64,000 nucleotides of DNA, taken from an uncultured Candidatus Rokubacteria bacterium. GTDB lineage: Bacteria > Methylomirabilota > Methylomirabilia > Rokubacteriales > CSP1-6. Under the pieces are notes generated by a model. That model searched no databases, was not told where the DNA came from, and saw only the letters and a list, made by a program, of their open reading frames with translations. The position numbers and the translations under genes were made by a program. Positions within the stretch are counted from its first letter, which is position 1, and each line of letters starts with the position of its first letter. Shown here piece after piece: positions 3,419-58,392 of the stretch. The DNA is taken from assembly GCA_963758635.1 (NCBI GenBank), contig CAVWWD010000003.1:288001-352000 (forward strand), given 5' to 3'.

Positions 3419-3561
3419 TGCAGTGCGAGCCGCAGCCGCGTGAAGTGCGAGCCGCAGCCGCAGGCGAGGCGAGCGTATATGGAAATGCAGTGGAACCGAC
3501 CGTCAAGCGCCGAAATGCAGTGGAAGCGACCGTCAGGAACTGCAGCGACCGACCGCCAACC
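3419..3561 (+). repeat. Family A palindromic element with partial tandem copies
   Basis: GCAGTGCGAGCCGCAGCCGC twice, then TATATGGAAATGCAGTGGAACCGACC and GAAATGCAGTGGAAGCGACC; matches copies at 27.0, 44.3, 57.3 and 58.3 kb. Confidence 0.85.
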
Positions 3562-3565
3562 TAGC

Positions 3566-4159
3566 ATGATGACGCGCGCGTGGCTCCTCGTGAGCGCGGC
3601 GGGGTTCGTGGCGAGCGGGCTGCTGCACCTGGGCACGTTCACGCCGGCGGCGTCGCGGCTGGGCGAGTCGTACGCCGCCGTCCTCTTCGCCGCGGCGTGC
3701 GTGCCGCTCGTCGCGATGGTGCGGCGGCTCCGCCGCCTGCCGCTGTCCGGCCGGCGATGGCGGCGCCTGCACGTCCTCGACTGGCGCGAGATCGTCGCGC
3801 CGGTGCCCCCGCCCGCGCGCGTCCTGATCTTCGGCGCCGCGCTCTACGTGCTCATGAACTCCGTGCTGTCCCTCGCCGTGATCGGGGGCGTGAGCGTGGA
3901 GGCGGGGGGCGGCGCGTACCACGCCGTCGAGCGCGGCGAGCGCCGGGAGATCTCGCGGGCGGAGTACGACGCCCACCGCGCCGCCGCTCTTCGCGGCCTG
4001 TCGGCCCCGCTGCTCCTGTTCTACCTGCTGCCCCTCGCCTACTTCGCGTTCGTCCCGCCGCCCCCGGCGCGGCGCGTCTGCCCGCATCGTTCGCGAACGG
4101 AGGCGGACCGTGAACGGCGTGGGCGTCCGGTGAGCCCGTTCATGAATAGTCCGCGCTAA
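3566..4159 (+). CDS. Hypothetical membrane protein (about 4 TM segments)
   Basis: ORF with several hydrophobic stretches and typical codon usage; no recognised family. Confidence 0.6.
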   Translation: MMTRAWLLVSAAGFVASGLLHLGTFTPAASRLGESYAAVLFAAACVPLVAMVRRLRRLPLSGRRWRRLHVLDWREIVAPVPPPARVLIFGAALYVLMNSVLSLAVIGGVSVEAGGGAYHAVERGERREISRAEYDAHRAAALRGLSAPLLLFYLLPLAYFAFVPPPPARRVCPHRSRTEADRERRGRPVSPFMNSPR

Positions 4160-4198
4160 GTCCGGGCGTTCATTGGCGTCTGCGCCGTCGCCGGCGCC

Positions 4199-4227
4199 TT
4201 GACACCCCGCGCCCCGCCCTATAAAGT
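4199..4227 (+). promoter_or_regulatory. sigma70-type promoter for nuoLMN
   Basis: TTGACA (4199-4204), 17 nt spacer, TAAAGT (4222-4227), 18 nt before the nuoL ATG. Confidence 0.65.
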
Positions 4228-4245
4228 GATGCGGGCTTTTTCCAC

Positions 4246-6120
4246 ATGTCGCGACTCGTCTGGCTCATTCCGCTCTTCCCGCTCGTCGGCTCGCTCGTCA
4301 ACGCGCTCTTCGGCCGGTCCATCGGGCGGCTCGCGCACTGGATCGCCGTCCCCGCGCTCGGCATGTCGTTCCTCACCGCGTGCGCGCTCTTCGCGCGCGT
4401 GTGGAACGGCGAGACCTACACCGGCGCGCTGTTCCCGTGGATCGTCGCCGGCACCTTCCACACCGCGATCACCGCCCAGGTCGACCAGCTCACCGCGGTG
4501 ATGCTCCTGGTCGTGACGGGGGTGGGCTTCCTCATCCACCTCTACTCGGCCGGCTACATGCACGGCGATCCGAGCTACGCCCGGTTCTTCACCTACCTGA
4601 ACCTGTTCGTGTTCTCGATGGTGATGCTCGTCCTCGCCGGCGACTTCCTCGTCCTCTACGTGTTCTGGGAGGCGGTGGGCCTGTGCTCGTACCTGCTCAT
4701 CGGCTTCTGGTACGAGAGGCCGGCGGCGGCGGAGGCGGGCAAGAAGGCGTTCATCGTGAACCGGGTGGGGGACTTCGGCTTCGGCCTCGGCGTGATGCTC
4801 ATCTGGACCACGTTCGGCACCCTCCAGTACTCGGAGGTCTTCGCCAAGGCCGAGGCCGGGCTCGCCGGCGGCACCGCGCTCGCCATCGCGCTCCTCCTGT
4901 TCACGGGCGCCACCGGGAAGTCGGCGCAGCTGCCGCTCTACACGTGGCTGCCCGACGCCATGGAGGGCCCCACGCCGGTGTCCGCGCTGATCCACGCCGC
5001 GACCATGGTCACCGCCGGCGTGTACATGGTGGCGCGCTGCCACGTGCTGTTCGAGAAGGCGCCGGTGTCGCTGGAGGTGGTGGCGTGGGTCGGCGGCCTC
5101 ACCGCCGTGTTCGCCGCCACCATCGGCCTCGTGCAGACCGACATCAAGCGCGTGCTCGCGTACTCGACGATCAGCCAGCTCGGGTACATGTTCGTCGCGG
5201 TGGGGGTGGGCGCGTACGCGGTGGGTATCTTCCACCTCGTGACGCACGCCTTCTTCAAGGCGCTGCTCTTCCTCGGCGCGGGCAGCGTCATCCACGGCCT
5301 CGGCGGCGAGCAGGATGTCCGGCGGATGGGCAACCTCGCCCCGAAGATGATGACGACCACGATCACCTTCGTGGTCGGAGCGGCGGGGCTGGCCGGGCTG
5401 TGGCCGTTCGCCGGGTTCTTCTCGAAGGACGCGATCCTCGCCGCCGCGCTCCACGAGGGCCACCGGGCGCTGTTCGTGCTGCTCCTCGCCGGAGCGTTCA
5501 TGACCGCGTTCTACACGTTTCGGCTGGTCGCCCTCGCGTTCTTCGGCAACTCTCGCATGTCGCACGAGGTGGCGCACCACGCGCACGAGTCGCCCGCGGT
5601 CATGACCATGCCCCTCGTGGTCCTCGCCCTCCTGACCATCGTCAGCGGGTTCGCGCTCGGCGTCCAGACGGCCGGCCAGACCCCCTTCGCCCGGTTCCTG
5701 AGCCCCGTCTTCCCCCTCGTCGAGGCCGAACACGGGTACTTCGTGCCCGTCCTCTCGCTGGCGGTGGCGGTGGCGGGCACGGTGCTCGCGTTGTTCATGT
5801 ACGGCTGGCGGCAGGTGCGGGCCGAGGACATCGGCGAGCCGCGCACCGCGCTTCACGCGCTCGTGCTGAACAAGTACTACGTGGACGAGATCTACGACGC
5901 CCTCGTCGTGACGCCGATCTACCGGCTGAGCCGCTGGTGCGCGGCGGTGTTCGACCTCGGGGTGATCGACGGCGCCGTCAACGGCGTGGGCGGGATCGTG
6001 ACCGCGGGGGCGCGCGGGCTGCGGCGCCTGCAGACCGGGTTCGTGATGAACTACGCCCTCACGATGCTCGTGGGCGCCGTCGCCGTCGTGGCCTACCTCC
6101 TGTCCCGGTCGCTCCGATGA
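4246..6120 (+). CDS. nuoL: NADH-quinone oxidoreductase subunit L
   Basis: FWEAVGLCSYLLIGFW, KKAFIVNRVGDFG, GKSAQLPLYTWLPDAMEGPTPVSALIHAATMV, HAFFKALLFL. Confidence 0.97.
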   Translation: MSRLVWLIPLFPLVGSLVNALFGRSIGRLAHWIAVPALGMSFLTACALFARVWNGETYTGALFPWIVAGTFHTAITAQVDQLTAVMLLVVTGVGFLIHLYSAGYMHGDPSYARFFTYLNLFVFSMVMLVLAGDFLVLYVFWEAVGLCSYLLIGFWYERPAAAEAGKKAFIVNRVGDFGFGLGVMLIWTTFGTLQYSEVFAKAEAGLAGGTALAIALLLFTGATGKSAQLPLYTWLPDAMEGPTPVSALIHAATMVTAGVYMVARCHVLFEKAPVSLEVVAWVGGLTAVFAATIGLVQTDIKRVLAYSTISQLGYMFVAVGVGAYAVGIFHLVTHAFFKALLFLGAGSVIHGLGGEQDVRRMGNLAPKMMTTTITFVVGAAGLAGLWPFAGFFSKDAILAAALHEGHRALFVLLLAGAFMTAFYTFRLVALAFFGNSRMSHEVAHHAHESPAVMTMPLVVLALLTIVSGFALGVQTAGQTPFARFLSPVFPLVEAEHGYFVPVLSLAVAVAGTVLALFMYGWRQVRAEDIGEPRTALHALVLNKYYVDEIYDALVVTPIYRLSRWCAAVFDLGVIDGAVNGVGGIVTAGARGLRRLQTGFVMNYALTMLVGAVAVVAYLLSRSLR

Positions 6121-7623
6121 TCCTGTCCGCGATCACGTTCCTGCCCGTCGCCGGCGCGGTGGCGGTGGCCTTCGTCCCGCGCGGCCAGGAGCGCATGGTC
6201 AAGATCCTCGCCTTCGTGGTGTCGCTCGCCGGCTTCCTCGCGTCGCTGCCGCTCTACCTGAGATTCGACCCGAGCCGGGCCGACTACCAGTTCGTGGAGT
6301 CCGCGCCGTGGATGCCCACCCTCGGGATCAGCTACCACCTGGGCGTGGACGGCATCAGCCTGCTCCTCGTGCTCCTCACCACGTTCCTGATGCCGCTGGC
6401 GCTGCTCGCCTCGTGGCACTCGATCGAGACGCGGTGGAAGGAGTTCGCGATCACGATGCTCCTCCTGGAGACGGGGATGCTGGGCGTCTTCGTGGCGCTC
6501 GACCTCTTCCTCTTCTACGTCTTCTGGGAGGCGATGCTGGTGCCGATGTACCTCATCATCGGCGTGTGGGGCGGGGCGCGCCGCGTGTACGCGGCCATCA
6601 AGTTCGTGCTCTACACGCTCGCCGGCTCCGTCCTCATGCTGGTGGCGATCCTCGCCCTCTACTTCCGGCACGGCGCGGCCACCGGCACCTACACGTTCGA
6701 CCTGCCCGGTGCTCGCGCAGTTCGTGCTTCCCGCCGGCCTCGCCCAGGACCTGATGTTCCTGGCCTTCGCGGTGGCGTTCGCCATCAAGGTGCCGATGTT
6801 CCCGTTCCACACCTGGCTGCCCGACGCCCACGTGGAGGCGCCCACCGCGGGCAGCGTGATCCTGGCCGGCGTGCTGCTGAAGATGGGCACGTACGGCTTC
6901 CTGCGCTTCTGCCTGCCCCTGTTCCCGCAGGCGAGCCTGCTCTTCGCGCCGTCGATCATGGTCCTCGGGCTCATCGGGATCGTCTACGGGGCCTGGGTCT
7001 CCACCGTGCAGCCCGACATCAAGAAGCTCGTGGCGTACTCCAGCGTGAGCCACCTCGGCTTCGTGATGGTGGGCCTGTTCACGCTCACGCCGCAGGGGCT
7101 GGTGGGCGGCATCATCCAGATGGTGAACCACGGGCTCAGCACCGGCGCCCTGTTCCTCCTGGTCGGCATGATCTACGAGCGGCGGCACACCCGGCTCATC
7201 GCCGACTTCGGCGGCCTCTGGTCGGTGATGCCCGCCTTCAGCGCGCTGTTCCTGATCGTGTCGCTGTCCTCGCTGGGGCTGCCCGGGCTGAACGGGTTCG
7301 TCGGCGAGTTCCTGATCCTGGTGGGGGCGTTCCAGTGGAGCCGGCCGGTGGCCGTCGTCGCCACCTCCGGCATCATCTTCGCCGCCGTGTACATGCTGTG
7401 GATGTACCAGCGCGTGGTGTTCGGGCCCGTCACCCGCGAGGAGAACCGCCGCCTCCAGGACCTGACGGGGCGGGAGTGGGCCGTCCTCCTGCCCGTCCTC
7501 GCGCTCATCGTGTGGATCGGCGTGTATCCGTCGGCGTTCACCGGCCTGACCGAGGCGAGCGTGCAGGCCCTGATCAGCCAGGTCCAGGCCAAGGCCGCCG
7601 CCGCCGCCCTCGCCGCCCGATGA
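6117..7623 (+). CDS. nuoM: NADH-quinone oxidoreductase subunit M (one apparent frameshift near 6705)
   Basis: [10 protein letters not shown] and [13 protein letters not shown] in first frame; [25 protein letters not shown] and [13 protein letters not shown] in second frame. Confidence 0.95.
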
Positions 7624-7699
7624 TCCGTTCACCCCGCGGCAGGGCGACGACGCTGGACGAACCACGAGTTAGGGAAGGGGCGAGCGTGTCGAGCCATGC

Positions 7700-7804
7700 G
7701 GTGGGGGGGAGTGGGGGCTGCTGTGCGAGGCGCAGCCGAAGGCGAGCCGAGCGAATCAGTAGTCGGTCCGAGCGGAAGCGAGGAGCGGCGCCGCTCCCCC
7801 CCAC
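7700..7804 (+). repeat. Inverted-repeat-bounded element with nested family A hairpin, between nuoM and nuoN
   Basis: GTGGGGGGGAGTGG ... CCGCTCCCCCCCAC arms around TGCGAGGCGCAGCCGAAGGCGAGCCGAGCG. Confidence 0.7.
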
Positions 7805-7810
7805 AGACGA

Positions 7811-9272
7811 ATGACGCCGGAGATCGTCTTTCCCGCCGTCAACCTCCGCGCCCTCGGGCCGATCCTCGCCCTCTCGGGCGCGGCGCTCATCGTGCTCCTC
7901 CTCGACCTGCTGCCGCCGCGCGAGCGCAAGGAGCACCTCGGCGCCGTCGGCCTCGTCGGCGCGCTCGCCGCCCTGTTCCTCACCGTGAGCCTCTGGGGCG
8001 GCGACGAGCGCGCCTTCGGCGGCATGGTCATCCTGGACCGCTACGCGCAGTTCTTCTACGTCGTCATCGGCTACGCGCTCGGCCTGGTCCTGCTCCTCTC
8101 GCTGGACTACGTCCGGCGGCAGGGGATCGAGTCGGGCGAGTTCTACCTCCTCGCCCTCTTCTCCGCGGTGGGCATGATGCTGATGGCCTCCGCGGGCGAT
8201 CTGATCATGATCTTCCTCGGCCTGGAGATCATGTCGATCACGCTCTACGTCCTCGCCGGCTTCTTCCGCAACCGTCTGGAGGCGGGCGAGGCCTCGCTCA
8301 AGTACTTCCTGCTCGGGGCCTTCGCCTCGGGCTTCCTCCTCTACGGCATCGCCCTCGTGTACGGCGCCACCGGGGCCACCAACCTGGACCGGATCGGGGC
8401 CGCGGTGGCGGGCGGCGCCGCGCGTGACCCGCTCCTCGTCATCGGCTTCGGCCTCCTGCTCGTGGGCTTCGGCTTCAAGATCGCCGTCGTCCCGTTCCAC
8501 ATGTGGGCGGCCGACGTGTACCAGGGGGCGCCGACGCTCGATCACCGCGTTCATCGCCACCGGCTCGAAGGCCGCGGCCTTCGCCGCCCTCGTGCGCGTG
8601 CTCCTCTCCGCGCTCCCCGGCGCCCCCATCGACTGGGCGCCCCTCCTGTGGGTGCTCGCCGCGCTCAGCATGACCATCGGCAACGTGGTCGCCATCGCCC
8701 AGCAGGACCTCAAGCGGATGCTCGCGTACTCGTCGATCGCCCACGGCGGCTACATGCTGATCGGCGTGGTGGCGGGCGGCTCGCTGGGCTACGGCGCGGT
8801 GCTGTTCTACATGCTCGTCTACACGTTCACCACGGTGGGGGCCTTCGGGGTCCTGCTCCTCCTGGAGCGCGAGGGTGGGGAGTCAGTCGACGTCCGCCAG
8901 CTCTCCGGCCTCTCCGCGCGTCATCCGCTGCTCGCCCTGGTCCTGTCCGTGTTCCTGCTGTCGCTCATCGGCATCCCGCCCACCGCCGGCTTCGTGGGGA
9001 AGTTCTACCTGTTCGGTGGGGCGGTGCAGGCCGGGTACATCTGGCTCGCCGTGGTCGGCGTGCTCAACTCCGCGGTGGCCGCGTACTACTACCTCCGCGT
9101 GATCGTCTACATGTACATGCGCGAGCCCGAGGCGCAGCCGGCGACCCTCACGCCGTCGTTCTCCGGGGGCCTCGCGCTCGCCGTCGCGGTGTGGGGCGTG
9201 ATCCACCTCGGCATCCTGCCCGCGTCCTTCCTGGACCGGGCCCGGGCCGCGCTCGCCCCGCTGCTGCGGTAA
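7811..9272 (+). CDS. nuoN: NADH-quinone oxidoreductase subunit N (apparent frameshift near 8540)
   Basis: EASLKYFLLGAFASG, GFKIAVVPFHMWAADVYQGAP, then KRMLAYSSIAHGGY and GIPPTAGFVGK in shifted frame. Confidence 0.95.
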
Positions 9273-9365
9273 GTCTTCGGAGGGTTGGCGGTAGGTTCCA
9301 CTGCCTGATCATGTCCCCCCTCACCCAACCCTCTCCCCCCGGCGGGGAGAGGGCTTCGGAGGTTA
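9273..9365 (-). repeat. Family B palindromic element (CCCTCTCCC...GGGAGAGGG hairpin plus GGCAGTGGAAC end)
   Basis: Reverse complement is nearly identical to the 78-bp unit at 20138-20288; begins directly after the nuoN TAA. Confidence 0.88.
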
Positions 9366-9379
9366 GCGGCGAAACCCAC

Positions 9380-11802: not shown

Positions 11803-11861
11803 CCGGGGCCGCGCCGATCCAGCGCCGCCGCGGAGTTATATACTGCCCCTGGAACCCGCCC

Positions 11862-15758: not shown

Positions 15759-15787
15759 TGACGCGCCCGCAGGGCGCCTCCACATGT

Positions 15788-18607: not shown

Positions 18608-18662
18608 CTGGCCGCCCAAACGGGCGGTCACCCGATCGTCATCCGCATGAAACGCACGTCAC

Positions 18663-18740
18663 CGAGCCCCGCGCATCAGACCAATGCCGAGCGGTGGGAC
18701 TGTAGAGGCCCGTGGCCGCTCCCGCATTCTGCGGGGGTCA
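18663..18740 (-). mobile_element. Family C MITE-like element (about 78 bp)
   Basis: Reverse complement aligns with 43749-43827 and 47541-47619 (core GCCACGGGCCTCTAC...TCCCACC); terminal inverted repeats. Confidence 0.8.
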
Positions 18741-18790
18741 CTAGCGTGGCGCGGAGCCGCATCATCCCCCTTCGGAACGGAGGTTTCACC

Positions 18791-20124
18791 ATGCGTCGAG
18801 CATCGTCGCCGTCGCACCGCGTCCTCGTCGCGCTCGTCGTCCTCGGCGCGGCGCTCCTCGTGGCCGGCCCCGCCGCCGCCCAGAAGACGGAGATCCACTT
18901 CTGGCACGCGATGGGCGGGCAGCTCGGGGAGACGGTGAACGAGCTGGTCCGGCAGTTCAACGCCAGCCAGCAGTCGTACGAGGTCAAGGCGCTGAACAAG
19001 GGCACGTATCCCGAGGTGCTCACCTCGGCCATCGCCGCGTACCGCCAGAAGAACCCGCCCCACCTCGTGCAGTTCTTCGACGTCGGGACGCAGACGATGC
19101 TGATGTCGGGGGCGATCTACCCCGTCTACCAGCTCATGAAGGAGCAGGAGGTCCCGATCAACTGGGGCGACTTCATCAAGCCGGTCTCGGCGTACTACTC
19201 GAAGGACGGGAACCTCTACTCGATGCCGTTCAACTCGTCGAGCCCGATCCTCTACTACAACAAGGAGATGTTCAAGAAGGCCGGGCTCGACCCGGCCAAG
19301 CCGCCGGCGACGTGGAAGGACGTCGGGCGAGCTACTCGAAGAAGATCCTCGCCGCCGGCGCGGCCAAGTGCGGCTTCACCACGTCGTGGCCGTCGTGGAC
19401 GATGCTCGAGAACACGTTCCCCTGGCACGACCAGCCCTTCGCCACCAACGGAAACGGCTATTCGGGGCTCGACACCAAGCTCCTCATCAACGGCGAGTTC
19501 GGGGTCAAGCACATCGGCCAGCTCGCGGCCTGGCAGAAGGACAACGTGTACTCCTACGGCGGCCGCATGGGCCAGCCCGATCCCAAGTTCATCAACGGCG
19601 ACTGCGCCATGCTGATCCAGTCCTCCGCGGTCATCGGCGGGTTCAAGAAGTCGGTGAAGTTCGAGTGGGGGACGGGCCAGCTCCCGCACTGGGGCGCGCC
19701 GTACAAGAAGCAGAACGCCATCGTGGGCGGCGGCACGCTCTGGGTGATGAAGGGGCAGAAGGCCGCCGACTACAAGGGCGTCGGCCAGTTCCTGAAGTTC
19801 GTCTCCGATCCCCACCAGCAGATGTGGTGGAGCGTCACCACCGGCTACGTGCCGATCACGCAGACCGCCATCAAGAACCTCGAGGCCGGCTACCACTTCA
19901 AGAAGAACCCCGAGCAGTGGACGGCCCTGTCCCAGCTGAGCGGCACGCCCACCGCCAACAGCCGCGGGCATCGCCTCGGCAACATGGCGCAGATCCGCGA
20001 CGCGATCGAGCCGGAGCTCGAGCAGGTGTTCGCGGGCAAGAAGTCGGCCAAGGAAGGCCTGGACGCCGCGGTGGCCAAGGGCAACGAGATCCTGAAAGAG
20101 TTCGCGGCCGCCAACAAGCCGTAG
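18791..20124 (+). CDS. ugpB: sn-glycerol-3-phosphate ABC transporter substrate-binding protein (frameshift near 19325)
   Basis: Signal peptide, IHFWHAMGG, FNASQ, SMPFNSSSPILYYNK, GGGTLWV, TGYVPIT. Confidence 0.9.
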
Positions 20125-20137
20125 GAACAGCCACGCA

Positions 20138-20288
20138 CCCTCCGAAGCCCTCTCCCCGCGAGGGGAGAGGGTTGGGTGAGGGGGGACATGGTCAGGCAGT
20201 GGAAACAACCGCCACCCCTCCGAAGCCCTCTCCCCGCGAGGGGAGAGGGTTGGGTGAGGGGGGAGATGATCAGGCAGTGGAAACAACC
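20138..20288 (+). repeat. Family B element, two tandem copies, period 78 bp
   Basis: CCTCCGAAGCCCTCTCCCCGCGAGGGGAGAGGGTTGGGTGAGGGGGGA(C/G)ATG(G/A)TCAGGCAGTGGAAACAACC; TCCGAAG at 20141 and 20219. Confidence 0.93.
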
Positions 20289-20322
20289 GGAACCTAACCG
20301 TGAACCTCCGAACGGCAGACGC

Positions 20323-26961: not shown

Positions 26962-26966
26962 CCTGC

Positions 26967-27052
26967 CTTGCGAAGCGAGCCGGCATGCTTTGCGGAGCGA
27001 GCCGAAGGCGAGCGGAGCGCATATGGAAATGAAGTGGAAACAACCGCCAACC
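26967..27052 (+). repeat. Family A element
   Basis: TGCGGAGCGAGCCGAAGGCGAGCGGAGCGCATATGGAAATGAAGTGGAAACAACC just after the permease stop. Confidence 0.88.
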
Positions 27053-36049: not shown

Positions 36050-36255
36050 GACCTCGGCGCTCGGCGCCCGAGGCGCCGCGTCGAACGCCCGTGTCGCGCC
36101 TCGCTTCGACTCCGCCGGGCTCGAGCCCCGGTGGGCCCATCCGCTGCCCGAGGAACCCACGCTTCGAGGTCTGGACGATTGAACAGTCGCCGCCCTGCTG
36201 CGCGTGAGCCTGACGGGACGGGTGCCGGCGGCGCGTCGGTCCTCGCCCCGGTTAG

Positions 36256-36348
36256 GTTGTGAAGGAATGCGGCTTTTGTCGTCGGCGAGCGGGCCAACAT
36301 TGCGATTCTGCGTACACGCGGAGCGCCGTCTCGCCATCGATTCACATT
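36256..36348 (+). mobile_element. Family E MITE-like element (93 bp)
   Basis: GTTGTGAAG...GCGGGCCAACA..GCGATTCTGCGTACAC..GCCGTCTC...TTCACA; homologous to 41568, 41671 and 51643 copies. Confidence 0.8.
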
Positions 36349-40279: not shown

Positions 40280-41574
40280 TCCGCCGGCTCGACACGCGGA
40301 CCGCCGGCGTCGACGGCGTCGTGCGCGCCCTGGAACGGCCGCCCGCCGCGGTCGACCCGGGCATCCAGCAGCAGGTGGCGGAGATCCTGGCCGCGGTGCG
40401 CGAGAAGGGCGACGCCGCGCTCGTCGAGCTGACCGAGCGCTTCGACGGCGTCCGCCTCGAGCCGGCCGGCCTCCCGGTCACCGAAGCCGAGATGGACGCG
40501 GCGGCGCGCCAGGTCGCGCCCGAGACCATGGCGGCCCTGGCGTACGCGGCCGGGCGGATCGAGGCGTTCCATCGCGCGGCGATGCCGCGCTCCTGGTCCA
40601 TGACGGACGCCGCCGGCTCGCGCCTCGGGCAGGACGTGCGGCCGCTCGACCGCGTCGGCATCTACGTGCCGGGCGGCCGCGCCGCCTATCCGTCCACGGT
40701 CCTCATGACCGCCGTGCCCGCGCGCGTGGCGGGGGTCCGGGAGATCGTCCTCGTCTCGCCGCCCGGCCGCGACGGCGCGCTCTCGCCCGTCGTGCTCGCG
40801 GCGGCGCGGCTGGCCGGAGTCACCGAGGCGTACCGCGTGGGCGGCGCCCAGGCCGTGGCCGCGCTCGCCTACGGCACGGCCACCGTGCGCCGCGTCGACA
40901 AGATCGTGGGCCCGGGCAACGTGTACGTCACGCTCGCCAAGGCCCGGGTCTTCGGCGAAGTCGGGATCGACATGCTGGCGGGGCCCAGCGAGGTGCTGGT
41001 GATCGCCGACGAGGGCGCGGACCCGACGCTTGCCGCCGCGGACCTGCTCGCCCAGGCGGAGCACGACCCGATGGCGCGCGCCGTGCTCGTCACGCCATCC
41101 GAGCGCCTGGCCGATCGCGTGGTCGCGGAGACCCAGCGCCAGCTCGGCGACCTGCCGCGCCGGGAGATCGCGGCCGCCGCGCTCGCCGCGAACGGCGCCG
41201 TGGTCCTCGTGGCCGGGCTCGGCGAGGCCGTGGAGCTCGCCAACCGCCTCGCTCCCGAGCACCTGGAGCTGCTCGTGGCCGATCCGGAGGCGCTCCTGCC
41301 GCGCGTGCGGCACGCCGGCGCGGTGTTCCTTGGGGCGGCCACGCCGGAGGTGGTCGGAGACTACGTGGCGGGACCGGACCACGTGCTGCCCACCGCGGGC
41401 ACGGCGCGCTTCTCGTCGGCGCTCAGCACCGAGGACTTCGTCACGCGGCTCAGCGTGATCCGATACTCGGCCGAGGGGCTCGAGGAAGCGTGGCCGCACC
41501 TGGCCGAGCTCGCGAGGGTGGAAGGGCTGGCCGGGCACGCGACGGCCGCTTCGGTCCGCATGAAGAGGTTGTGA
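40276..41574 (+). CDS. hisD: Histidinol dehydrogenase
   Basis: GIYVPGGRAAYPSTVLM, GGAQAVAALAYGT, GPGN, AGPSE, QAEHD, APEHLE. Confidence 0.97.
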   Translation: MIRRLDTRTAGVDGVVRALERPPAAVDPGIQQQVAEILAAVREKGDAALVELTERFDGVRLEPAGLPVTEAEMDAAARQVAPETMAALAYAAGRIEAFHRAAMPRSWSMTDAAGSRLGQDVRPLDRVGIYVPGGRAAYPSTVLMTAVPARVAGVREIVLVSPPGRDGALSPVVLAAARLAGVTEAYRVGGAQAVAALAYGTATVRRVDKIVGPGNVYVTLAKARVFGEVGIDMLAGPSEVLVIADEGADPTLAAADLLAQAEHDPMARAVLVTPSERLADRVVAETQRQLGDLPRREIAAAALAANGAVVLVAGLGEAVELANRLAPEHLELLVADPEALLPRVRHAGAVFLGAATPEVVGDYVAGPDHVLPTAGTARFSSALSTEDFVTRLSVIRYSAEGLEEAWPHLAELARVEGLAGHATAASVRMKRL

Positions 41575-41773
41575 AGGGATGCGGATCTTGACTTCGCCAT
41601 GCGGGGCAACACCGCGAGTCTGCGTACACACGCGGCGCCGTCTCGCCATTCCTTCGGTCCGCATGAAGAGGTTGTGAAGGGATGCGGATCTTGACTTCGC
41701 CATGCGGGGCAACACCGCGAGTCTGCGTACACACGCGGCGCCGTCTCGCCATTCCTTCGGTCCGCATGAAGAG
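41549..41773 (+). repeat. Tandem 103-bp duplication carrying two family E elements
   Basis: TCGGTCCGCATGAAGAGG at 41551, 41654 and 41757; the two full units are identical. Confidence 0.95.
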
Positions 41774-43839: not shown

Positions 43840-44768
43840 ATGCTCGCCAAGCGCGTCATCCCCTGCCTCGACGTCCAGGGCGGCCGCGTCGTCAAGGGCG
43901 TCCGGTTCGTCGAGCTCCGGGACGCCGGCGACCCGGTCGAGGCGGCCCGCGCGTACGACGCGCAGGGCGCCGATGAGCTGGTGTTCCTCGACATCGCGGC
44001 CTCGCACGAGGGGCGCGCCACCATGCTCGACGTCGTGCGCCGGACCGCGGAGGGCGTGTACATGCCGGTGACGGTGGGCGGCGGCGTCGGGAGCCTGGAC
44101 GACGTCCGGACGCTGCTCCGCGCCGGCGCCGACAAGGTCTCGCTGAACACCGCGGCCCTCGCGCGTCCCGAGCTGATCATGGACGCCGCGCGCGCGTTCG
44201 GCAGCCAGTGCATCGTGGTGGCCATCGACGCCAAGCGCGAGGCTGTGGCAGTGCGAAGCGAGCCGAAGGCGAGCGGAGCGCACGTGGCAGTGCGAAGCGA
44301 GCCGAAGGCGAGCGGAGCGCACGTGGCAGTGCGAAGCGAGCCGAAGGCGAGCGGAGCGCACATGGAAATGCCGTGGAAACGACCGGCGGCCGAGGGGAGG
44401 GGCTGGAGCCGCCGCGCTGGGGCGTCTACACGCACGGCGGCCGGCGCCCCGCGGGCCGCGACGCGCTCGCGTGGGCCCGTGAGGTCGAGACGCTCGGCGC
44501 CGGCGAGATCCTGCTGACGAGCATGGACCGCGACGGCACCGGCGCCGGCTACGACCTCGAGCTGACGCGCGCGGTGTCCGAGGCGGTCGGCATTCCCGTG
44601 ATCGCCTCCGGGGGCGCGGGAACGCTGGCCCACCTGGCCGACGGCGTCACCGAGGGCAAGGCGGACGCCGTGCTCGTGGCCTCGATCTTCCACTTCGGGC
44701 AGCACACGGTGGGCGAGGCCAAGCGCTACCTCCGGGAGCGCGGCGTGCCCGTGCGGATCGACACATGA
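43840..44768 (+). CDS. hisF: Imidazole glycerol phosphate synthase cyclase subunit, with repeat insertion and one frameshift near 44395
   Basis: [36 protein letters not shown] in first frame; [34 protein letters not shown] in second frame. Confidence 0.95.
44245..44384 (+). repeat. Family A element, 3 x 39 bp tandem plus 3' end, inside hisF
   Basis: GTGGCAGTGCGAAGCGAGCCGAAGGCGAGCGGAGCGCAC at 44245, 44284 and 44323, then ATGGAAATGCCGTGGAAACGACC. Confidence 0.96.
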
Positions 44769-46744: not shown

Positions 46745-46745
46745 C

Positions 46746-47490: not shown

Positions 47491-47540
47491 GCGGCGTGGC
47501 GACGCGACGGCCGACGGCCCGTGGGGCACGGGGACGCTGA

Positions 47541-47619
47541 TGAGTCTCGCAGAATACGGTAACCGCCACGGGCCTCTACAATCCCACCTGTGCGGCGTTC
47601 GTCTGACGCGCGAGGCTCA
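47541..47619 (+). mobile_element. Family C MITE-like element
   Basis: TGAGTCTCGC...GCGAGGCTCA terminal inverted repeats; same core as the 43749 copy. Confidence 0.82.
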
Positions 47620-47623
47620 ATAG

Positions 47624-48940: not shown

Positions 48941-48962
48941 CCCGCGCTTCCGGTCGAGGCTG

Positions 48963-50324: not shown

Positions 50325-50444
50325 CCCCGAGCTCTGGGGCTGATCGGCGAACTCTGGGCGTGGCAAGGCGCGCGTGAACGATTACAATCTGGGCGGGTTG
50401 GCTTGGCTCGAGCGCGTGCCGGGAGTTCCCGCGGAGGGCTTTCG

Positions 50445-51622: not shown

Positions 51623-51642
51623 CGAGACGGCTTCACCGAGGA

Positions 51643-51735
51643 GTCGTGGATCGACGTTGAGACGGCCGCGCATGTGGACGCTGAATCGCGGTGTTGGCCC
51701 GCACGGTGAGGTCAAGGTCCGCGCTGCTTCACAAC
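51643..51735 (-). mobile_element. Family E MITE-like element (93 bp)
   Basis: Reverse complement GTTGTGAAG..GCGGACCTTGAC..GCGGGCCAACACCGCGATTCAGCGTCCAC..GCCGTCTC..TCCACGAC. Confidence 0.8.
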
Positions 51736-51751
51736 GTCGGAGGAGAGGCTC

Positions 51752-53182: not shown

Positions 53183-53943
53183 GCGAGCGGGACGCCGCGC
53201 CCCTCTTCGGCCGGAACCCGGTGCTGGAGCTGCTCCGGGCCGACAGCCGCCGCGTGGAGGAGATCGCGATCCTCGCCGAGGGCCGGGGCCCCGCGCTCCA
53301 GACGCTGCTCACCCTGGCGCGCCAGCGCGGCGTCAAGGTGTCCTACCGGACCCGGGACCAGCTCTCGGCCATCGCCGGCACCGTCCACCACCAGGGCGTG
53401 GTGGCCCGGGTGGCCGAAGCGGCCTACGTCCCCCTGGCCGATCTCCTGGGCCTGCCCGCCGAGAAGAAGGAGCAGGCGCTCTTCCTGGCCCTCGACCGGA
53501 TCCAGGACCCGCGGAACCTGGGCGCGGTCCTCCGGACCGCGGAGGCCACGGGCGTCCACGGGGTGGTGCTCCCGACCCACCACGCCGTGGGCCTCACGGC
53601 CGCGGTCGCGAAGTCGGCGATGGGCGGGATGGAGCACGTCCCCGTGGCTCGAGAAGCCAACCTGGTGAACGTGCTCGAGGCCATGAAGCAGGAGCAGATC
53701 TGGGTGATGGGCGCGGCCCTCCGGGGAGGCGAGGCGCCGTGGGACGTGGACCTGGCCGTGCCCCTCTGCCTGGTGCTGGGGGGAGAGGGGGAGGGGCTCC
53801 GGCCCCTGGTGGCCCGGACCTGTGATCGCCTCCTGACCTTGCCGATGCGGGGCAAGCTCGGGTCGCTGAACGTGTCGGCGGCGGCGGCCGTCCTCTGTTA
53901 CGAGGTGCTGCGGCAGCGATCAGGTAGGAGAATTTCCTCTTGA
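53179..53943 (+). CDS. rlmB: 23S rRNA (G2251-2'-O)-methyltransferase
   Basis: GRNPV, HQGVVA, LDRIQDPRNLGAVLRTA, VLGGEGEG, SLNVS (SPOUT fold). Confidence 0.92.
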   Translation: MSERDAAPLFGRNPVLELLRADSRRVEEIAILAEGRGPALQTLLTLARQRGVKVSYRTRDQLSAIAGTVHHQGVVARVAEAAYVPLADLLGLPAEKKEQALFLALDRIQDPRNLGAVLRTAEATGVHGVVLPTHHAVGLTAAVAKSAMGGMEHVPVAREANLVNVLEAMKQEQIWVMGAALRGGEAPWDVDLAVPLCLVLGGEGEGLRPLVARTCDRLLTLPMRGKLGSLNVSAAAAVLCYEVLRQRSGRRISS

Positions 53944-53968
53944 CTATGCGTAACCTCGAAACTAATGT
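53940..53968 (+). promoter_or_regulatory. sigma70-type promoter of tRNA-tuf operon
   Basis: TTGACT, 17 nt spacer, TAATGT in an AT-rich patch, 14 nt before the first tRNA. Confidence 0.7.
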
Positions 53969-53982
53969 GAAGTTTTGCGACT

Positions 53983-54057
53983 GCTGGCGTAGCTCAGGGG
54001 TAGAGCAACTGCCTTGTAAGCAGTGGGTCGGGGGTTCAAATCCTCCCGCCAGCGCCA
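53983..54057 (+). tRNA. tRNA-Thr(TGT)
   Basis: Acceptor GCTGGCG/CGCCAGC, anticodon loop CTTGTAA, GGTTCAAATCC, CCA. Confidence 0.95.
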
Positions 54058-54091
54058 GCTTTTCCGGGAGGTTAGCCGTCGGGCACGGGCC

Positions 54092-54177
54092 GGGGAGATA
54101 CCCAAGTGGCCAAAGGGGGCAGACTGTAAATCTGCTGGCGGACGCCTTCGGGGGTTCAAATCCTCCTCTCCCCACCA
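54092..54177 (+). tRNA. tRNA-Tyr(GTA)
   Basis: Acceptor GGGGAGA/TCTCCCC, loop CTGTAAA, long variable arm, CCA. Confidence 0.95.
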
Positions 54178-54213
54178 GCCCAGCTCGGGGGCGTGATGGC
54201 GGCTCGGGGGCGA

Positions 54214-54288
54214 GCGGGAATAGCTCAGCGGTAGAGCGCCAGCCTTCCAAGCTGGGGGTCGCGGGTTCGAATCCCGTTTCCCGCTCCA
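54214..54288 (+). tRNA. tRNA-Gly(TCC)
   Basis: Acceptor GCGGGAA/TTCCCGC, loop CTTCCAA, GGTTCGAATCC, CCA. Confidence 0.95.
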
Positions 54289-54347
54289 TCGCCGCCTCGT
54301 GGCCACGAGGCGGGCGCTCGCTCACGACGACGACGATCGACATTCGG

Positions 54348-54423
54348 GCCCATGTAGCTCAGTTGGCAGAGCGCGTCCTTGGTAAGGACGAGGTCTCCGG
54401 TTCAAGCCCGGACATGGGCTCCA
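54348..54423 (+). tRNA. tRNA-Thr(GGT)
   Basis: Acceptor GCCCATG/CATGGGC, loop TTGGTAA, GGTTCAAGCCC, CCA. Confidence 0.95.
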
Positions 54424-54450
54424 TTTCGCCGGACATGGGCTCCACTTCGC
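54408..54450 (+). repeat. Direct duplication of tRNA-Thr 3' end (period 21 bp)
   Basis: CCGGACATGGGCTCCA(T/C)TTCGC at 54408 and 54429. Confidence 0.9.
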
Positions 54451-54513
54451 TGGTTCGGCACGCGCGACCCTGGGCAGTCGAACGCACCACGTAGGACGGA
54501 GGAGGATTCTCGG

Positions 54514-55710
54514 ATGGCCAAGGCGAAGTTCGATCGGACGAAGCCGCACGTGAACATCGGGACGATTGGGCACATCGATCACGGGAAGACGACGTTGACG
54601 AGTGCGATTACGAAGGTGCTGCACACGAAGTACAGCGGGGTGGCGGTGCGGGACTTTGGGACGATCGACAACGCGCCGGAAGAGCGGGAGCGGGGGATCA
54701 CGATCGCGGTGTCGCACGTGGAGTACGAGACGGGGAACCGGCACTACGCGCACATCGACTGTCCGGGGCACGCGGACTACATCAAGAACATGATCACGGG
54801 GGCGGCGCAGATGGACGGGGCGATCCTCGTGGTGGCGGCGAACGATGGGCCGATGCCGCAGACGCGGGAGCACGTGTTGCTGGCGCGGCAGGTGAATGTG
54901 CCGAGCCTGGTGGTGTTCATGAACAAGGTGGACATGGTGGATGATCCGGAGATTTTGGACCTGGTGGAGCTGGAGGTGCGGGAGTTGCTGAAGAAGTACC
55001 AGTTCCCGGGGGACGACATCCCGGTGGTGCGGGGCAGCGCGCTGGGGGCGATGGAGAAGCCGGAGGACGCGACGGCGTCGAAGTGCATCTGGGAGCTGAT
55101 GGAGGCGGTGGACAGCTACATTCCGACGCCGCCGCGGCCGGTGGACAAGCCGTTTTTGATGCCGATCGAGGACATATTCACGATCACGGGGCGGGGGACG
55201 GTGGTGACGGGGCGGGTGGAGCGGGGGATCGTGAAGGTGGGGGAAGAGATCGAGATCGTGGGGATGCAGGAGGCGACGCGGAAGTCGGTGGTGACGGGGG
55301 TGGAGATGTTCCGGAAGCTGCTGGACGAGGGGCGGGCGGGGGACAACATCGGGGCGTTGCTGCGGGGGGTGGACAAGGACGAGGTGGAGCGGGGGCAGGT
55401 GCTGGCGAAGCCGGGGTCGATCAAGCCGCACAAGAAGTTCAAGGCGGAGGTGTACGTGCTGGGGAAGGACGAGGGGGGGCGGCACACGCCGTTTTTCAAC
55501 GGGTACCGGCCGCAGTTCTACTTTCGGACGACGGACGTGACGGGGGTGTGCACGCTGCCGAGTGGGGTGGAGATGGTGATGCCGGGGGACAACGTGACGA
55601 TGGCGATCGAGCTGATCCAGCCGATCGCGATGGAGAAGGAGCTGCGGTTCGCGATCCGGGAGGGGGGACGGACGGTGGGAGCGGGCGTCGTGGCGGAGAT
55701 CGCGGAGTAG
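54514..55710 (+). CDS. tuf: Elongation factor Tu
   Basis: [57 protein letters not shown]. Confidence 0.99.
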
Positions 55711-55713
55711 GTC

Positions 55714-55863
55714 ATGCGCGACGGCATCTCCTTGGCGTGCACGACATGCCAGCGACGCAACTACGCGACCACCAAGAACCGGCGCACGCATCCCGATCGC
55801 CTGGAGCTCAAGAAGTTCTGCAAGTGGTGCCGTAAGCACACTCCCCACCGGGAGTCGAAATAG
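55714..55863 (+). CDS. rpmG: 50S ribosomal protein L33 (Zn-binding form; below ORF-track cutoff)
   Basis: Hand-translated: [49 protein letters not shown]. Confidence 0.95.
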
Positions 55864-55915
55864 ACAACGCGGGCGCTGGCCCATTGTCCTAAGGGCCAAT
55901 TGTCCGAACGTTTCT

Positions 55916-55992
55916 AGGCGTGTAGCTCTAACGGCTAGAGCACCGGACTCCAAATCCGGGGGATGGGGGTTCGAATCCCTCCACGCCTGCCA
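55916..55992 (+). tRNA. tRNA-Trp(CCA)
   Basis: Acceptor AGGCGTG/CACGCCT, loop CTCCAAA, GGTTCGAATCC, CCA; canonical position between rpmG and secE. Confidence 0.95.
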
Positions 55993-56071
55993 GTTCCGCC
56001 GCCGCGTGCCGGGGGACCGGCCGCGGCGAGCGGTGGAGTAAACGCTTCGAGGGTGTCTTGACGGGAGCGGA

Positions 56072-56263
56072 ATGGAGTTCCTGAGACGTACCCAGCAGTT
56101 CTTCCACGAGGTGATGGCGGAGTTCCGGCGCGTCAGCTGGCCCAGCCGCACCGAGGTGGCCAACTCCACCGTGGTCGTCGTGGCGGTGGTGTTCGTGCTC
56201 GCCTTCTTCCTCGGGGGGGTCGACGTCGCCCTGTCCAAGATCGTGGAGAGGATCCTCCGATGA
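56072..56263 (+). CDS. secE: Preprotein translocase subunit SecE
   Basis: FFHEVMAEFRRVSWPSRTE plus one TM; precedes nusG. Confidence 0.93.
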   Translation: MEFLRRTQQFFHEVMAEFRRVSWPSRTEVANSTVVVVAVVFVLAFFLGGVDVALSKIVERILR

Positions 56264-56820
56264 GCGAGAGCGAAACGGCGACAGGGACGCGGCCGAAGCA
56301 GTGGTTCGTCGTGCACACGTACTCGGGCTTCGAGAACAAGGTGGCGTCGGCCATCGAGTCGCGGGCCAAGATCTTCAACCTCCAGGACATGTTCGGCCGC
56401 GTGATCGTGCCCACCGAGAAGGTGCGGGAGATCCGGCGGAGCAAGAAGATCGAGATCGAGCAGAAGTTCTTCCCGGGCTACCTGCTCGTGGAGATGGAGT
56501 TGACCGACGACACGTGGCACCTCGTGCGCTCGACGCCGAAGGTCACGGGCTTCGTCGGCTCGGGGGCGCGGCCGGTCGCGCTGCCGCCCGACGAGGTGGA
56601 GGGGATCCTCAAGCAGATGGAGGAGGGCGCGGAGAAGCCCAAGCTCAAGTCCACGTTCCAGCGTGGCGACAAGGTGCGGGTCATCGAGGGGCCGTTCGTG
56701 AACTTCCAGGGCGCCATCGACGACCTCAACCCCGAGCGCGGGAAGCTCAAGGTCATGGTGGCCATCTTCGGGCGCATGACGCCCGTGGAGCTCGAGTACT
56801 ACCAGGTGGAAAGGCTCTGA
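56260..56820 (+). CDS. nusG: Transcription termination/antitermination factor NusG
   Basis: [57 protein letters not shown]. Confidence 0.98.
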
Positions 56821-56821
56821 C

Positions 56822-57256
56822 ATGGCGAAGAAGGTCCAGGCGATGGTGAAGCTGCAGATCCCCGCGGGCAAGGCCAACCCCTCGCCCCCGGTGGGACCCG
56901 CGCTCGGCCAGCACGGGGTCAACATCATGGAGTTCTGCAAGGGCTTCAACGCCCAGACGAACTCGCAGGAGGGCCTGATCCTGCCCGTGGTGGTCACGAT
57001 CTTCCAGGACCGGTCGTTCACCTTCGTGGTGAAGACGCCGCCCGCCGCGGTGCTCCTGAAGCGCGCGGCGGGGATCGCCAAGGCGTCGGCGGTGCCCCAC
57101 AAGGACAAGATCGGCCAGGTGACGCGCGCCCAGGTCCGCGAGATCGCCCAGACCAAGCTCGTCGACCTGAACACCGACTCCATCGACTCCGCCATGCGCA
57201 CCGTCGAAGGCACCGCCCGCAGCATGGGGATTGATGTGGTCGGTGCTGTGAGGTGA
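56822..57256 (+). CDS. rplK: 50S ribosomal protein L11
   Basis: [43 protein letters not shown]. Confidence 0.98.
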
Positions 57257-57491
57257 GCGCGAAGCGCGAGCCGAACGAACATGGAAATGCAGTGGAAACG
57301 ACCAGAACCCGACGAGAGCCGGCGCGATCGAGAGCCGGCCGTGGCAGTGCGAGGTGAGCGCGAAGCGCGAGCCGAGCGAACATGGAAATGCAGTGGAAAC
57401 GACCGAGAGCCGCGACGAGAGCCGGCCGTGGCAGTGCGAGGTGAGCGCGAAGCGCGAGCCGAGCGTATATGGAAATGCAGTGGAAACAACC
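57243..57491 (+). repeat. Family A array: three about 60-bp repeats with 41- and 27-bp related spacers
   Basis: GTGGCAGTGCGAGGTGAGCGCGAAGCGCGAGCCGAGCG(AAC/TAT)ATGGAAATGCAGTGGAAAC at 57341-57400 and 57428-57487, plus a 5'-degenerate copy ending 57299. Confidence 0.95.
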
Positions 57492-57520
57492 GAAACGCGG
57501 CCTGAGAGGAGCGCACTGAC

Positions 57521-58228
57521 ATGCCGACCATGACCAAGCGCGAGAAGGCGGCGAGCGCCGCCTACGACCGGGAGAAGGAATATCCGGTCGAAGAGGCGCT
57601 CGGCGTCCTGAACCAGCTGCCGAAGGCGAAGTTCGACGAGACGGTCGATCTGTCGATGCGGCTCGGCGTCGATCCCAAGCACGCGGACCAGATGGTCCGC
57701 GGCGCCATCGTCCTGCCCCACGGCATCGGCAAGGCCGTGCGCGTGGCGGTGTTCGCCAAGGGCGAAAAGGAGCGCGAGGCGCGCGAGGCCGGCGCGGACG
57801 TGGTCGGCGCCGAGGATCTCGTCGAGCGGATCCAGGGGGGCTGGCTCGACTTCGACTCGGCGGTGGCCACCCCGGACCTCATGGGCCAGGTGGGCCGACT
57901 CGGCAAGGTGCTCGGTCCGCGCGGGCTCATGCCCAACCCGAAGCTCGGCACGGTGACGTTCGACGTCGGGCGCGCGGTGCGCGAGGTGAAGGCGGGCAAG
58001 GTGGAGTTCCGGGTGGACAAGGCCGGCAACGTGCACGTGCCCATCGGGAAGCGCTCGTTCACGCCGGAGGCCCTCGTGGACAACGCCCTCGCCCTCCTCG
58101 AGGCGGTCGTCCGGGCCAAGCCCTCGGCCTCGAAGGGCACGTACCTGCGGTCGATCACGCTGTCCTCGACCATGAGCCCCGGCATCAAGGTCGACGCCCA
58201 GCGCATCGCCGCGCAGTTCAAGCGGTAG
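57521..58228 (+). CDS. rplA: 50S ribosomal protein L1
   Basis: [46 protein letters not shown]. Confidence 0.98.
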
Positions 58229-58392
58229 TGCGCAGCGAGCCGAAGGCGAGCGGAGCGCATATGGAAATGCAGTGGAAGCGACGCAGCGCCGAGCGCACAT
58301 GGAAATGCAGTGGAAACGACCGCAGCGCCGCCGGACGCGTTGCGGGGACGGCAGTGGAAACAACCGCAGCGCCGTCGAACGCGTTGCGGGTC
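58229..58392 (+). repeat. Family A element with progressively truncated tandem copies
   Basis: GCAGTGGAA at about 58269, 58307 and 58351; CGCAGCGCCG and ACGCGTTGCGGG linkers repeated. Confidence 0.9.

What the first reader, a model, noticed from the sequence alone, without database searches (positions are those of the whole stretch)
3419..58392. Family A: dispersed about 60-bp element with GNA-triloop hairpins and a fixed ATGGAAATGCAGTGGAAAC end
Seen at six loci: 3419-3561, 7722-7755 (partial), 26967-27052, 44245-44384, 57243-57491 and 58229-58392, all on the + strand. The central hairpin covaries (GCC-GAA-GGC, GCC-GCA-GGC, GCGC-GAA-GCGC). It is flanked by GA/GA dinucleotides that could form tandem sheared G.A pairs, while the AT-richer 3' end is nearly invariant. 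Known: d(GCGAAGC)-type GNA mini-hairpins are unusually stable in single-stranded DNA, and REP elements are ssDNA hairpins handled by HUH (RAYT) enzymes. Inference: a non-autonomous element with a structure-conserved body and a sequence-conserved recognition end, mobilised or amplified in trans. I do not recognise it as a named family.
Basis: partly seen in the sequence, partly recalled or inferred. Interest (0 to 1): 0.75.

Follow-up and report, generated by a model that had tools for sequence, protein, structure and literature searches.

The report
Sense-strand DNA hairpin repeat of Rokubacteria
A roughly 60-base repeat found at 124 places in this uncultured bacterium's genome, with its core in about half of its family, conserves an unusual hairpin predicted to fold on one DNA strand only and lies mostly right behind genes, facing their way; it is likely a tiny parasite copied as single-stranded DNA by an enzyme not yet found.

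Summary
The repeat is real. All six loci check out, and the genome holds 162 hits at 124 loci (reversed control: 1). Its core is a 29-nt hairpin with a GNA triloop and two tandem GA/GA mismatches. The "fixed end" is not fixed: it is exact in 11 of 106 canonical copies and absent from 250 other genomes of the phylum. The hairpin occurs in 87 of 251, followed by a hypervariable purine-rich linker and, in several genera, a second GNA hairpin. Copies face the direction of transcription (54:20 here; 13:1 and 56:5 elsewhere), hug stop codons, insert after TAG/TG without duplication and stack head-to-tail. Some insert in frame. No RAYT was found in the genome, and no IS91, IS110, GIY-YIG (Ssn) or DUF559 gene is flanked by copies. 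Best reading: a REP-like, non-autonomous single-stranded-DNA element, likely inserted by HUH-type strand transfer into the non-template strand; the enzyme is unknown. The scan noted similar GA/GNA hairpin families on other DNA, but not this family. New variant of a known kind.

The parts
3419..3439 (+). 3'-truncated partial copy (flank plus 5' arm) stacked upstream of the full copy
   Evidence: sequence
3441..3503 (+). full copy: hairpin 3446-3475 (GCA loop, 3x2 internal loop variant), purine-rich tail 3476-3503
   Evidence: E 2.5e-14
3511..3561 (+). two degenerate repeats of the tail
   Evidence: sequence
7717..7784 (+). two-hairpin form (large hairpin, linker, small GA-flanked hairpin) nested in another palindromic repeat in the gap behind a nuoM-type gene
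   Evidence: contigs of runs X1 and X3 skip 7717-7779 (only 21 letters on the short side, may come from other copies or organisms)
20135..20290 (+). two tandem copies of a different palindrome, each carrying the distal half of the family-A tail; shows the tail is a separable module
   Evidence: (D2)
26965..26982 (+). 3'-truncated partial copy just behind a TAG stop
26985..27047 (+). full copy: hairpin 26991-27019, tail 27020-27047, upstream of atpZ/atpI-like genes
   Evidence: (E 1.2e-16)
44246..44385 (+). three head-to-tail 39-bp units plus tail, inserted inside hisF in frame with its 5' half
   Evidence: (D3)
43840..44768 (+). hisF host gene; its two halves lie in different frames just behind the insert (probably an assembly indel, not checked)
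   Evidence: PF00977 positions 1-147 and 134-227 in two frames
57244..57492 (+). three tandem copies (periods 101 and 87) with the longer GCGC-GAA-GCGC inner stem between rplK and rplA; the rplK stop lies inside the first copy
   Evidence: (D1)
58225..58282 (+). full copy starting at the rplA stop codon
   Evidence: E 6.5e-15
58288..58392 (+). tail repeats with duplicated flanking DNA, upstream of rplJ
   Evidence: (D2)

Best explanation
This is a gene-less repeat family whose hairpin, predicted to fold only on the strand that reads like the mRNA, is likely copied and inserted as single-stranded DNA by a nick-and-join (HUH-type) enzyme acting in trans, most often where a gene ends. Shown: a 29-nt hairpin (GNA triloop, two tandem GA/GA mismatches) kept by compensatory changes across a bacterial family; a variable purine-rich 3' linker; insertion right after a target G (TAG, TG, TGG) with no duplication seen; sense-strand orientation; stop-codon hugging; head-to-tail stacking; reuse of the same sites in different lineages. 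Inferred: the fold is DNA rather than RNA; the substrate is the non-template strand exposed by transcription, for example in an R-loop where ribosomes leave the message; local arrays arise by nick-primed re-synthesis or slippage at the hairpin; the enzyme is an unrecognised HUH protein or one that visits on mobile DNA.
For: Covariation: 95.2% of cells paired, score 0.150, 0 of 500 shuffles, slid controls at most 45% paired (53 sequences); 104 of 106 outer pairs complementary in non-own loci; second hairpin closed by complementary dinucleotides in 59 of 62. G-C exchanges with A.G at one pair, which only the purine-rich strand can form. GNA mini-hairpins are far more stable in DNA than RNA (PMC13037366, passages). 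RNA folds of three copies on both strands are no better than shuffles (z -0.3 to +1.4). Filled and empty sites against metagenome contigs at 71-89% flank identity. Same hisF site filled in another frame in L164. Opposite orientation behind the same gene in L063 versus L079/L102. Orientation 54:20 (p 1e-4), 13:1 and 56:5. 13 of 14 copies in convergent gaps lie within 30 nt of their own-strand stop, 7.8 expected. The REP model allows cleavage 5' or 3' of the hairpin, variable units, tandem amplification and R-loop DNA as substrate (PMC3333891, PMC8266576, passages). A GT[AGT]G word sits at one fixed place 5' of the stem in 92 of 240 non-own and 30 of 105 own copies.
Against: No mobiliser found. 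No Y1 in this genome by Pfam, NCBIfam or a 32-sequence custom profile (genome 87% complete). None in 8 of 8 genomes of high-copy genus g53, some 96-100% complete. No copy (no hit below E 1) next to the Y1 loci examined. Only 1 close inverted pair in 124 loci, unlike REP dimers. Nearest-neighbour DNA folding gives no stability over shuffles (the model may lack the sheared-GA and GNA terms). Sense bias and stop hugging could come partly from selection after insertion. No replication-strand bias remains once transcription is accounted for (12 of 25 antisense, 21 of 34 neutral), whereas IS200/IS605-type enzymes favour the lagging-strand template (PMC6006769, abstract).
Confidence: 0.5

Rival explanations
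1. No transposase is needed. The hyperstable hairpin protects short single-stranded fragments or stalls polymerase, or is cut by a non-HUH single-strand nuclease, and host repair pastes the piece in at short homologies; slippage builds the arrays.
For: Unit lengths in relatives range from 39 to 79 bp. Junctions often fall on short shared words. 16 of 124 loci have stacked 5' partials (control 1.9%) and 23 of 124 have extra tail pieces (control 1.3%). No Y1 in this genome or in genus g53. SsnA is a precedent for a hairpin-specific single-strand nuclease (PMC11893778, passages).
Against: The 5' edge is sharp (G at -5 in 95% of 155 copies), and hairpin and linker length (17-19 nt in 56 of 62) are conserved across genera, which suggests a specific protein. 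The SRM motif overlaps 0 of 124 loci. No copy lies beside 30 top GIY-YIG loci and one lies near 1 of 20 more, not flanking it.
Confidence: 0.2
2. The element is kept by the host as an RNA-level cassette (3' stabiliser, or ribosome-binding and start signal for the next gene), and its orientation reflects that job.
For: Strong sense orientation. It sits in operons for ribosomal, ATP synthase, nuo and his genes. A start-like RTG lies 9-13 nt behind the hairpin in 81 of 97 own and 81 of 240 other tails (45.5 expected).
Against: Presence is patchy between close relatives. RNA folding is unremarkable. A GNA triloop is a DNA motif. Copies also hug stops in convergent gaps with no downstream gene, interrupt coding sequence and lie antisense at 25 loci.
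Confidence: 0.14
3. The element is a miniature relic of an IS91-family element: hairpin plus tail is a ter-ori junction moved by a Y2 transposase.
For: IS91 elements make no duplication and form single-stranded circles with a ter-ori junction (PMC13181058, introduction). The top de novo motif behind 28 Y2 genes of this order resembles the start of the tail (column-permutation p 0.017 and 0.022). Y2 genes are in 77 of 183 genomes; four fragments lie in this genome.
Against: The test is post hoc and weak. No hairpin in 30 Y2 loci or 20 longer stretches. The fragments lie 7.8 kb or more from any copy. 6 of 8 g53 genomes lack Y2. Transposase integration would split the junction to the two ends, yet it sits intact in the middle.
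Confidence: 0.1
4. The tail is a remnant of protein-coding sequence read on the minus strand.
For: One minus frame has only 1 stop in 116 distinct tails and many third-position changes.
Against: The best-of-six-frames synonymous fraction is not above a column-permutation null (p 0.15). Pyrimidine-rich strands read as S/L/F/P in any frame. Tails of relatives differ in length and frame.
Confidence: 0.03

Closest known systems
GTAG-tagged REP / BIME / REPIN elements with RAYT (TnpA_REP, Y1 HUH) (PMC3733652, PMC8266576, PMC3333891)
   Same: Small, high-copy, mostly extragenic hairpin with conserved mismatches; a tag-like word 5' of the stem; tandem reiteration with flanking DNA; in-frame copies in genes; nesting in other palindromes; no terminal repeats or duplication.
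   Different: GTAG itself is rare at the tag position (0 of 105 own, 11 of 240 other copies) and part of the word comes from the target. Arrays are head-to-tail, which is under-represented among REPs. No RAYT is linked. The fold rests on a GNA triloop and two tandem GA/GA mismatches. Strong sense-strand polarity. The consensus figures of PMC3733652 could not be seen, so identity with one of its 24 families is not excluded by direct comparison.
CGTC repeats / Neisseria NTS / SRM with Ssn GIY-YIG single-strand nucleases (PMC3733652, PMC11893778)
   Same: Orphan-prone hairpin repeat read as single-stranded DNA; in-frame insertions in proteins.
   Different: No CGTC tag; the SRM search pattern overlaps none of the 124 loci; no GIY-YIG gene examined is flanked by copies.
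GNA mini-hairpin signals of single-strand origins and promoters (RSF1010 ssiA, phage N4 promoter; PMC13037366 section 4.2)
   Same: The inner CCGAAGG mini-hairpin is the one named for ssiA. The core also occurs once, among other GNA hairpins, in Rhizobium, Sinorhizobium and haloarchaeal plasmids.
   Different: Here it is a dispersed chromosomal repeat with filled and empty sites; no Prim-Pol gene was found in the genome.
IS91/ISCR ori and ter ends (PMC13181058, PMC13023784)
   Same: No duplication; a hairpin next to a purine-rich word that resembles the motif behind local Y2 genes.
   Different: The hairpin is not found at IS91-family loci, there is no linked Y2 gene, and the resemblance is only p about 0.02.

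Membership tests
GTAG REP / REPtron | 20-50 nt palindrome, many copies, mostly extragenic | tested here: met
   29-nt hairpin; 108 of 124 loci between predicted genes
GTAG REP / REPtron | conserved GTAG-type tetranucleotide at the foot | tested here: not met
   GTAG 0 of 105 own and 11 of 240 other copies; GT[AGT]G 30 of 105 and 92 of 240; at filled/empty pairs the TAG/TG belongs to the target
GTAG REP / REPtron | inverted dimers (BIME/REPIN) | tested here: not met
   1 close inverted pair in 124 loci; 26 loci with two or more same-strand hits
GTAG REP / REPtron | RAYT gene flanked by cognate copies | tested here: not met
   none in G000 (87% complete); Y1 in 32 of 159 family genomes, 0 of 8 in g53; no copy beside the Y1 loci examined
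GTAG REP / REPtron | strand-specific cleavage at CT by the enzyme | not testable with these tools
   needs a biochemical assay
CGTC / NTS / SRM with Ssn | match to the published SRM pattern | tested here: not met
   64 genome matches (28 in reversed control), 0 overlap family A
CGTC / NTS / SRM with Ssn | small GIY-YIG gene flanked by the repeat | tested here: not met
   0 of 30 loci; 1 of 20 has a single copy some hundred bases away; many further GIY-YIG matches not examined
MITE | terminal inverted repeats and target-site duplication | tested here: not met
   the two ends are unlike; flank and tail trinucleotides agree in 6 of 104, 9.4 expected; no duplication seen at filled/empty pairs, whose 3' edges are ragged
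IS91-family derivative | oriIS-like end | tested here: inconclusive
   p 0.017 and 0.022, post hoc
IS91-family derivative | hairpin matches a terIS of a family member | tested here: not met
   no hit in 30 loci or 20 longer stretches
CRISPR repeat | regular array with unique spacers | tested here: not met
   dispersed; tandem units repeat their flanks; only an E 4.3 Rfam hit; cas genes not searched

The most novel reading that the evidence does not exclude
A transcription-coupled single-stranded-DNA replicator. The GA/GNA hairpin is read on the displaced non-template strand at the point where translation ends, and is moved by a nick-and-join enzyme that belongs to no known Y1, Y2 or Ssn family. 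It would be the type member of a broad class of GA/GNA hairpin repeats that recur across phyla without a recognised partner.
Probability: 0.17. Interest if true: 0.8.

Novelty: new variant of a known kind. Interest (0 to 1): 0.44.

Why it matters
How REP-like repeats spread in living cells is still open (PMC8266576, abstract). This family gives unusually clean material: a fold defined by covariation that includes non-canonical pairs, a mapped 5' edge, a replicated transcription polarity, and high-copy genomes up to 100% complete with no detected RAYT. If a partner is found it would be a new single-strand DNA processing enzyme. If none exists, it shows that such repeats can spread on host functions alone. 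In practice the copies rewrite gene ends and insert peptides into core proteins such as HisF, which misleads annotation.

Tried and rejected
Rfam: only tRNAs in the window at gathering score; nothing meaningful by E-value. Exact tail pattern in genome contigs: 0. Hairpin pattern in viral contigs: 0. Phage collection: only weak chance-level hits. Candidate partners in the own genome: Y1 none; four-helix bundle none; GxxExxY none; Prim-Pol none; Y2 none by Pfam (43, whose control rang nowhere) but four fragments by custom profile; GIY-YIG 2, DUF559 1, IS110 2 and RT 2 loci, none next to a copy (28, 29, 89, 90 against the list in 18). 67 proteins around 20 paired or extended loci gave only housekeeping Pfam families or none. 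An inverted pair in G229 turned out to lie in and at the end of an ordinary membrane-protein gene. Coding-tail idea rejected. Flank/tail duplication rejected (38; a first version had a wrong index). Independent replichore bias not found (78; skew is weak, 12 contigs). Vienna folding gave no signal as DNA or RNA (36, 37). One translation was in the wrong frame (106, 110; the right one is 109). Contigs laid on window 2500-8500 were too fragmented to show presence or absence of the 3441 copy. The hisF frame break could not be checked against reads and stays open. Literature searches found no description of this family; the library lacks most subscription papers, and figures and supplements were not seen. 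ISfinder and R-scape were not available.
Full report
Setting. The window is C3:288001-352000 of a 6.17-Mb, 71% GC genome in 12 contigs, 87% complete. Record titles of most hairpin hits name Methylomirabilota/Rokubacteria, and earlier notes call this genome Rokubacteria. Gene positions come from my own hexamer model (77% coverage, starts often truncated), so stop codons are more reliable than starts.

Observation. All six loci exist. A profile finds 162 hits at 124 loci at E<0.01, against 1 in the reversed genome. Of the 162 hits, 106 have an ungapped 29-nt body; the other 56 (gapped, tail-only or diverged) were left out of the pair counts. The body reads stem, GA/GA, 3-bp stem, GA/GA, GCC-GNA-GGC. 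The loop is GNA in 102 of 106. The middle stem switches G-C 63 / C-G 36; its outer pair switches G-C 74 / A.G 29; the basal stem has C-G 98 / T-A 6. On 53 sequences from fetched loci and metagenome contigs the structure beat 500 of 500 shuffles, and slid pairings reached at most 45%; relatedness is not controlled by the shuffles. In 106 non-own copies the middle pair was complementary in 104. Longer inner stems with paired insertions on both sides also occur. Standard folding does not rank the element above shuffles as DNA or RNA. The case for a DNA fold rests on the GNA loop and GA pairs, and on PMC13037366 (passages, section 4.2), which reports such mini-hairpins as much more stable in DNA than RNA.

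The tail. It is not fixed: exact in 11 of 106 copies, with variable columns. A degenerate tail pattern hits 68 places here and none in 250 other phylum genomes, but the tail is in several of 15 metagenome stretches. The hairpin, in contrast, is in 87 of 251 phylum genomes and 84 of 158 other family members, with 0 hits for the reversed pattern; copy numbers are highest in genera g51, g53, g17, g4 and this one. In 155 distinct non-own copies the tail starts N-A-T-A-Y followed by purines (A 97%, T 83%, A 79%; 41% GC), and 141 differ in their first 14 bases. In 20 of 159 family genomes a second GA-flanked GNA hairpin follows, after a 17-19-nt linker in 56 of 62, with complementary closing pairs in 59 of 62. 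The window's 7717-7784 copy is of this kind. The own tail also rides on another palindrome at 20135-20290. So the conserved unit is hairpin plus a short purine-rich linker, predicted to stay unpaired; the rest is lineage-specific.

Where it inserts. Of 124 loci, 54 lie sense and 20 antisense in co-directional gaps, 19 in divergent and 15 in convergent gaps, and 16 inside predicted genes (p 1e-4). The polarity repeats in G229 (13:1, from 30 of 42 matches) and in the 80 of 123 scan loci that came with flanks (56:5) (some are the same site in several genomes, so not independent). In convergent gaps 13 of 14 lie within 30 nt of their own-strand stop, 7.8 expected (one 3-kb gap dropped). An overall lean to the G-rich strand (78 of 124) vanishes in antisense (12 of 25) and neutral (21 of 34) contexts. 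Filled and empty pairs put the 5' edge right after a target G: after TAG in L191, after TGA or TG in L190 and L178, after TAG/TGG in L186; G at -5 is 95% conserved. No duplication is seen, and 3' edges are ragged. Sites are reused: hisF carries the element in another frame in L164, one gene end has it in both orientations, and one shared site has different body subtypes (L180), which fits re-insertion or conversion. In-frame inserts include 3 x 63 bp in a gene of G003 and 2 x 57 bp in an own glycosyltransferase. Arrays are head-to-tail: 26 loci have two or more hits, 16 have stacked 5' partials, 23 have extra tail pieces, and only 1 close inverted pair exists.

Partner search. No Y1/RAYT in this genome. 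Y1 genes occur in 32 of 159 family genomes, including 12 of 21 in g51 but 0 of 8 in g53, and none of those fetched has a copy beside it. IS91-type Y2 genes are common (77 of 183) but lack the hairpin. A motif behind them resembles the tail's start at p about 0.02, found post hoc. GIY-YIG genes examined are not flanked, and the Ssn motif does not overlap. IS110, RT, DUF559 and others are unlinked or absent. The hairpin core occurs singly in 55 plasmid records at loose thresholds, in three cases inspected as one intergenic copy, two of them among other GNA hairpins.

Mechanism. Shown: structure conservation on one strand, mobility, polarity, 5' edge, lack of duplication. Inferred: a single-stranded DNA intermediate, the non-template strand as substrate, and an HUH-type enzyme. 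The published REP model offers each step: cleavage on either side of the hairpin, circles, nick-primed tandem growth, and R-loop DNA as possible substrate (PMC3333891, PMC8266576, passages). I give this 0.5. Host repair or a non-HUH nuclease gets 0.2, an RNA-level host role 0.14, an IS91 relic 0.1. The link between R-loops and the end of translation is my recall, not from a call.

Comparison and novelty. It works like a REP but fails the membership tests for tag, inverted dimers and RAYT linkage; it also fails those for SRM/Ssn and MITE. Papers seen: PMC3733652 (parts 1-2 of 8, passages; figures not visible), PMC8266576 (part 1, passages), PMC3333891 (passages), PMC6006769 (abstract, part 3), PMC13037366 (passages, section 4.2), PMC13181058 (introduction, passages), PMC13023784 (passages), PMC11893778 (passages); no supplements. 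Eight searches found no description of this family. The scan's notes hold no look-alike sequence but several GA/GNA hairpin repeat families in other genomes, so the design recurs and is not unique to this lineage. Verdict: real, apparently undescribed, a new variant of REP-like elements with an unidentified partner; interest 0.44.

Noticed in passing
window 43840-44768; also 18647-20124: hisF is split over two frames right behind the insert, and a solute-binding protein gene is split likewise; assembly indels are the likely cause.
   Followed up: partly
window 20135-20290; G000 C3 near 103950: A second palindrome family of the type I recall as associated with DUF559 genes; in the window it carries the family-A tail.
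   Followed up: partly
window 7690-7810; L057, L104, L159: A third palindrome family with G-run and C-run ends hosts the family-A hairpin in its loop in several genomes.
   Followed up: partly
   Followed up: no
window 41549-41754 and 36237-36339: 103-bp repeat, two identical tandem copies plus a 72% copy (D4).
   Followed up: no
window 58967-59111: 42-bp coding repeat giving an Ala/Pro/Glu-rich extension of the L10 reading frame (D15).
   Followed up: no
L267-L285, L044: A single-copy Y1/RAYT-like protein of about 295 aa in genera g51, g5, g17 and g49, not linked to this hairpin.
   Followed up: partly
L412-L415 (G245): G245 has 15 GIY-YIG matches; the copies read are near-identical small genes with a shared upstream end, so probably a mobile GIY-YIG element.
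   Followed up: no
L207-L236: IS91-family genes of this order share a conserved 14-base motif about 200 nt behind the stop, often followed by an attC-like inverted repeat (the attC reading is from recall).
   Followed up: partly
L054, L056, L059, L061, L064: Records titled Verrucomicrobiia, Acidoferrum, Nitrosotalea, Limnocylindria and Nitrosocosmicus have flanks 75-87% identical to this genome, so the titles are probably wrong.
   Followed up: partly
G000 C8:547130-547170: A copy lies inside what looks like a DnaE-type polymerase gene (identification from recall); REP inserts in dnaE2 are reported in PMC3733652.
   Followed up: no
L286-L288: The hairpin core occurs once in Rhizobium, Sinorhizobium and haloarchaeal plasmids, in one case next to a ParB-domain gene.
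   Followed up: partly
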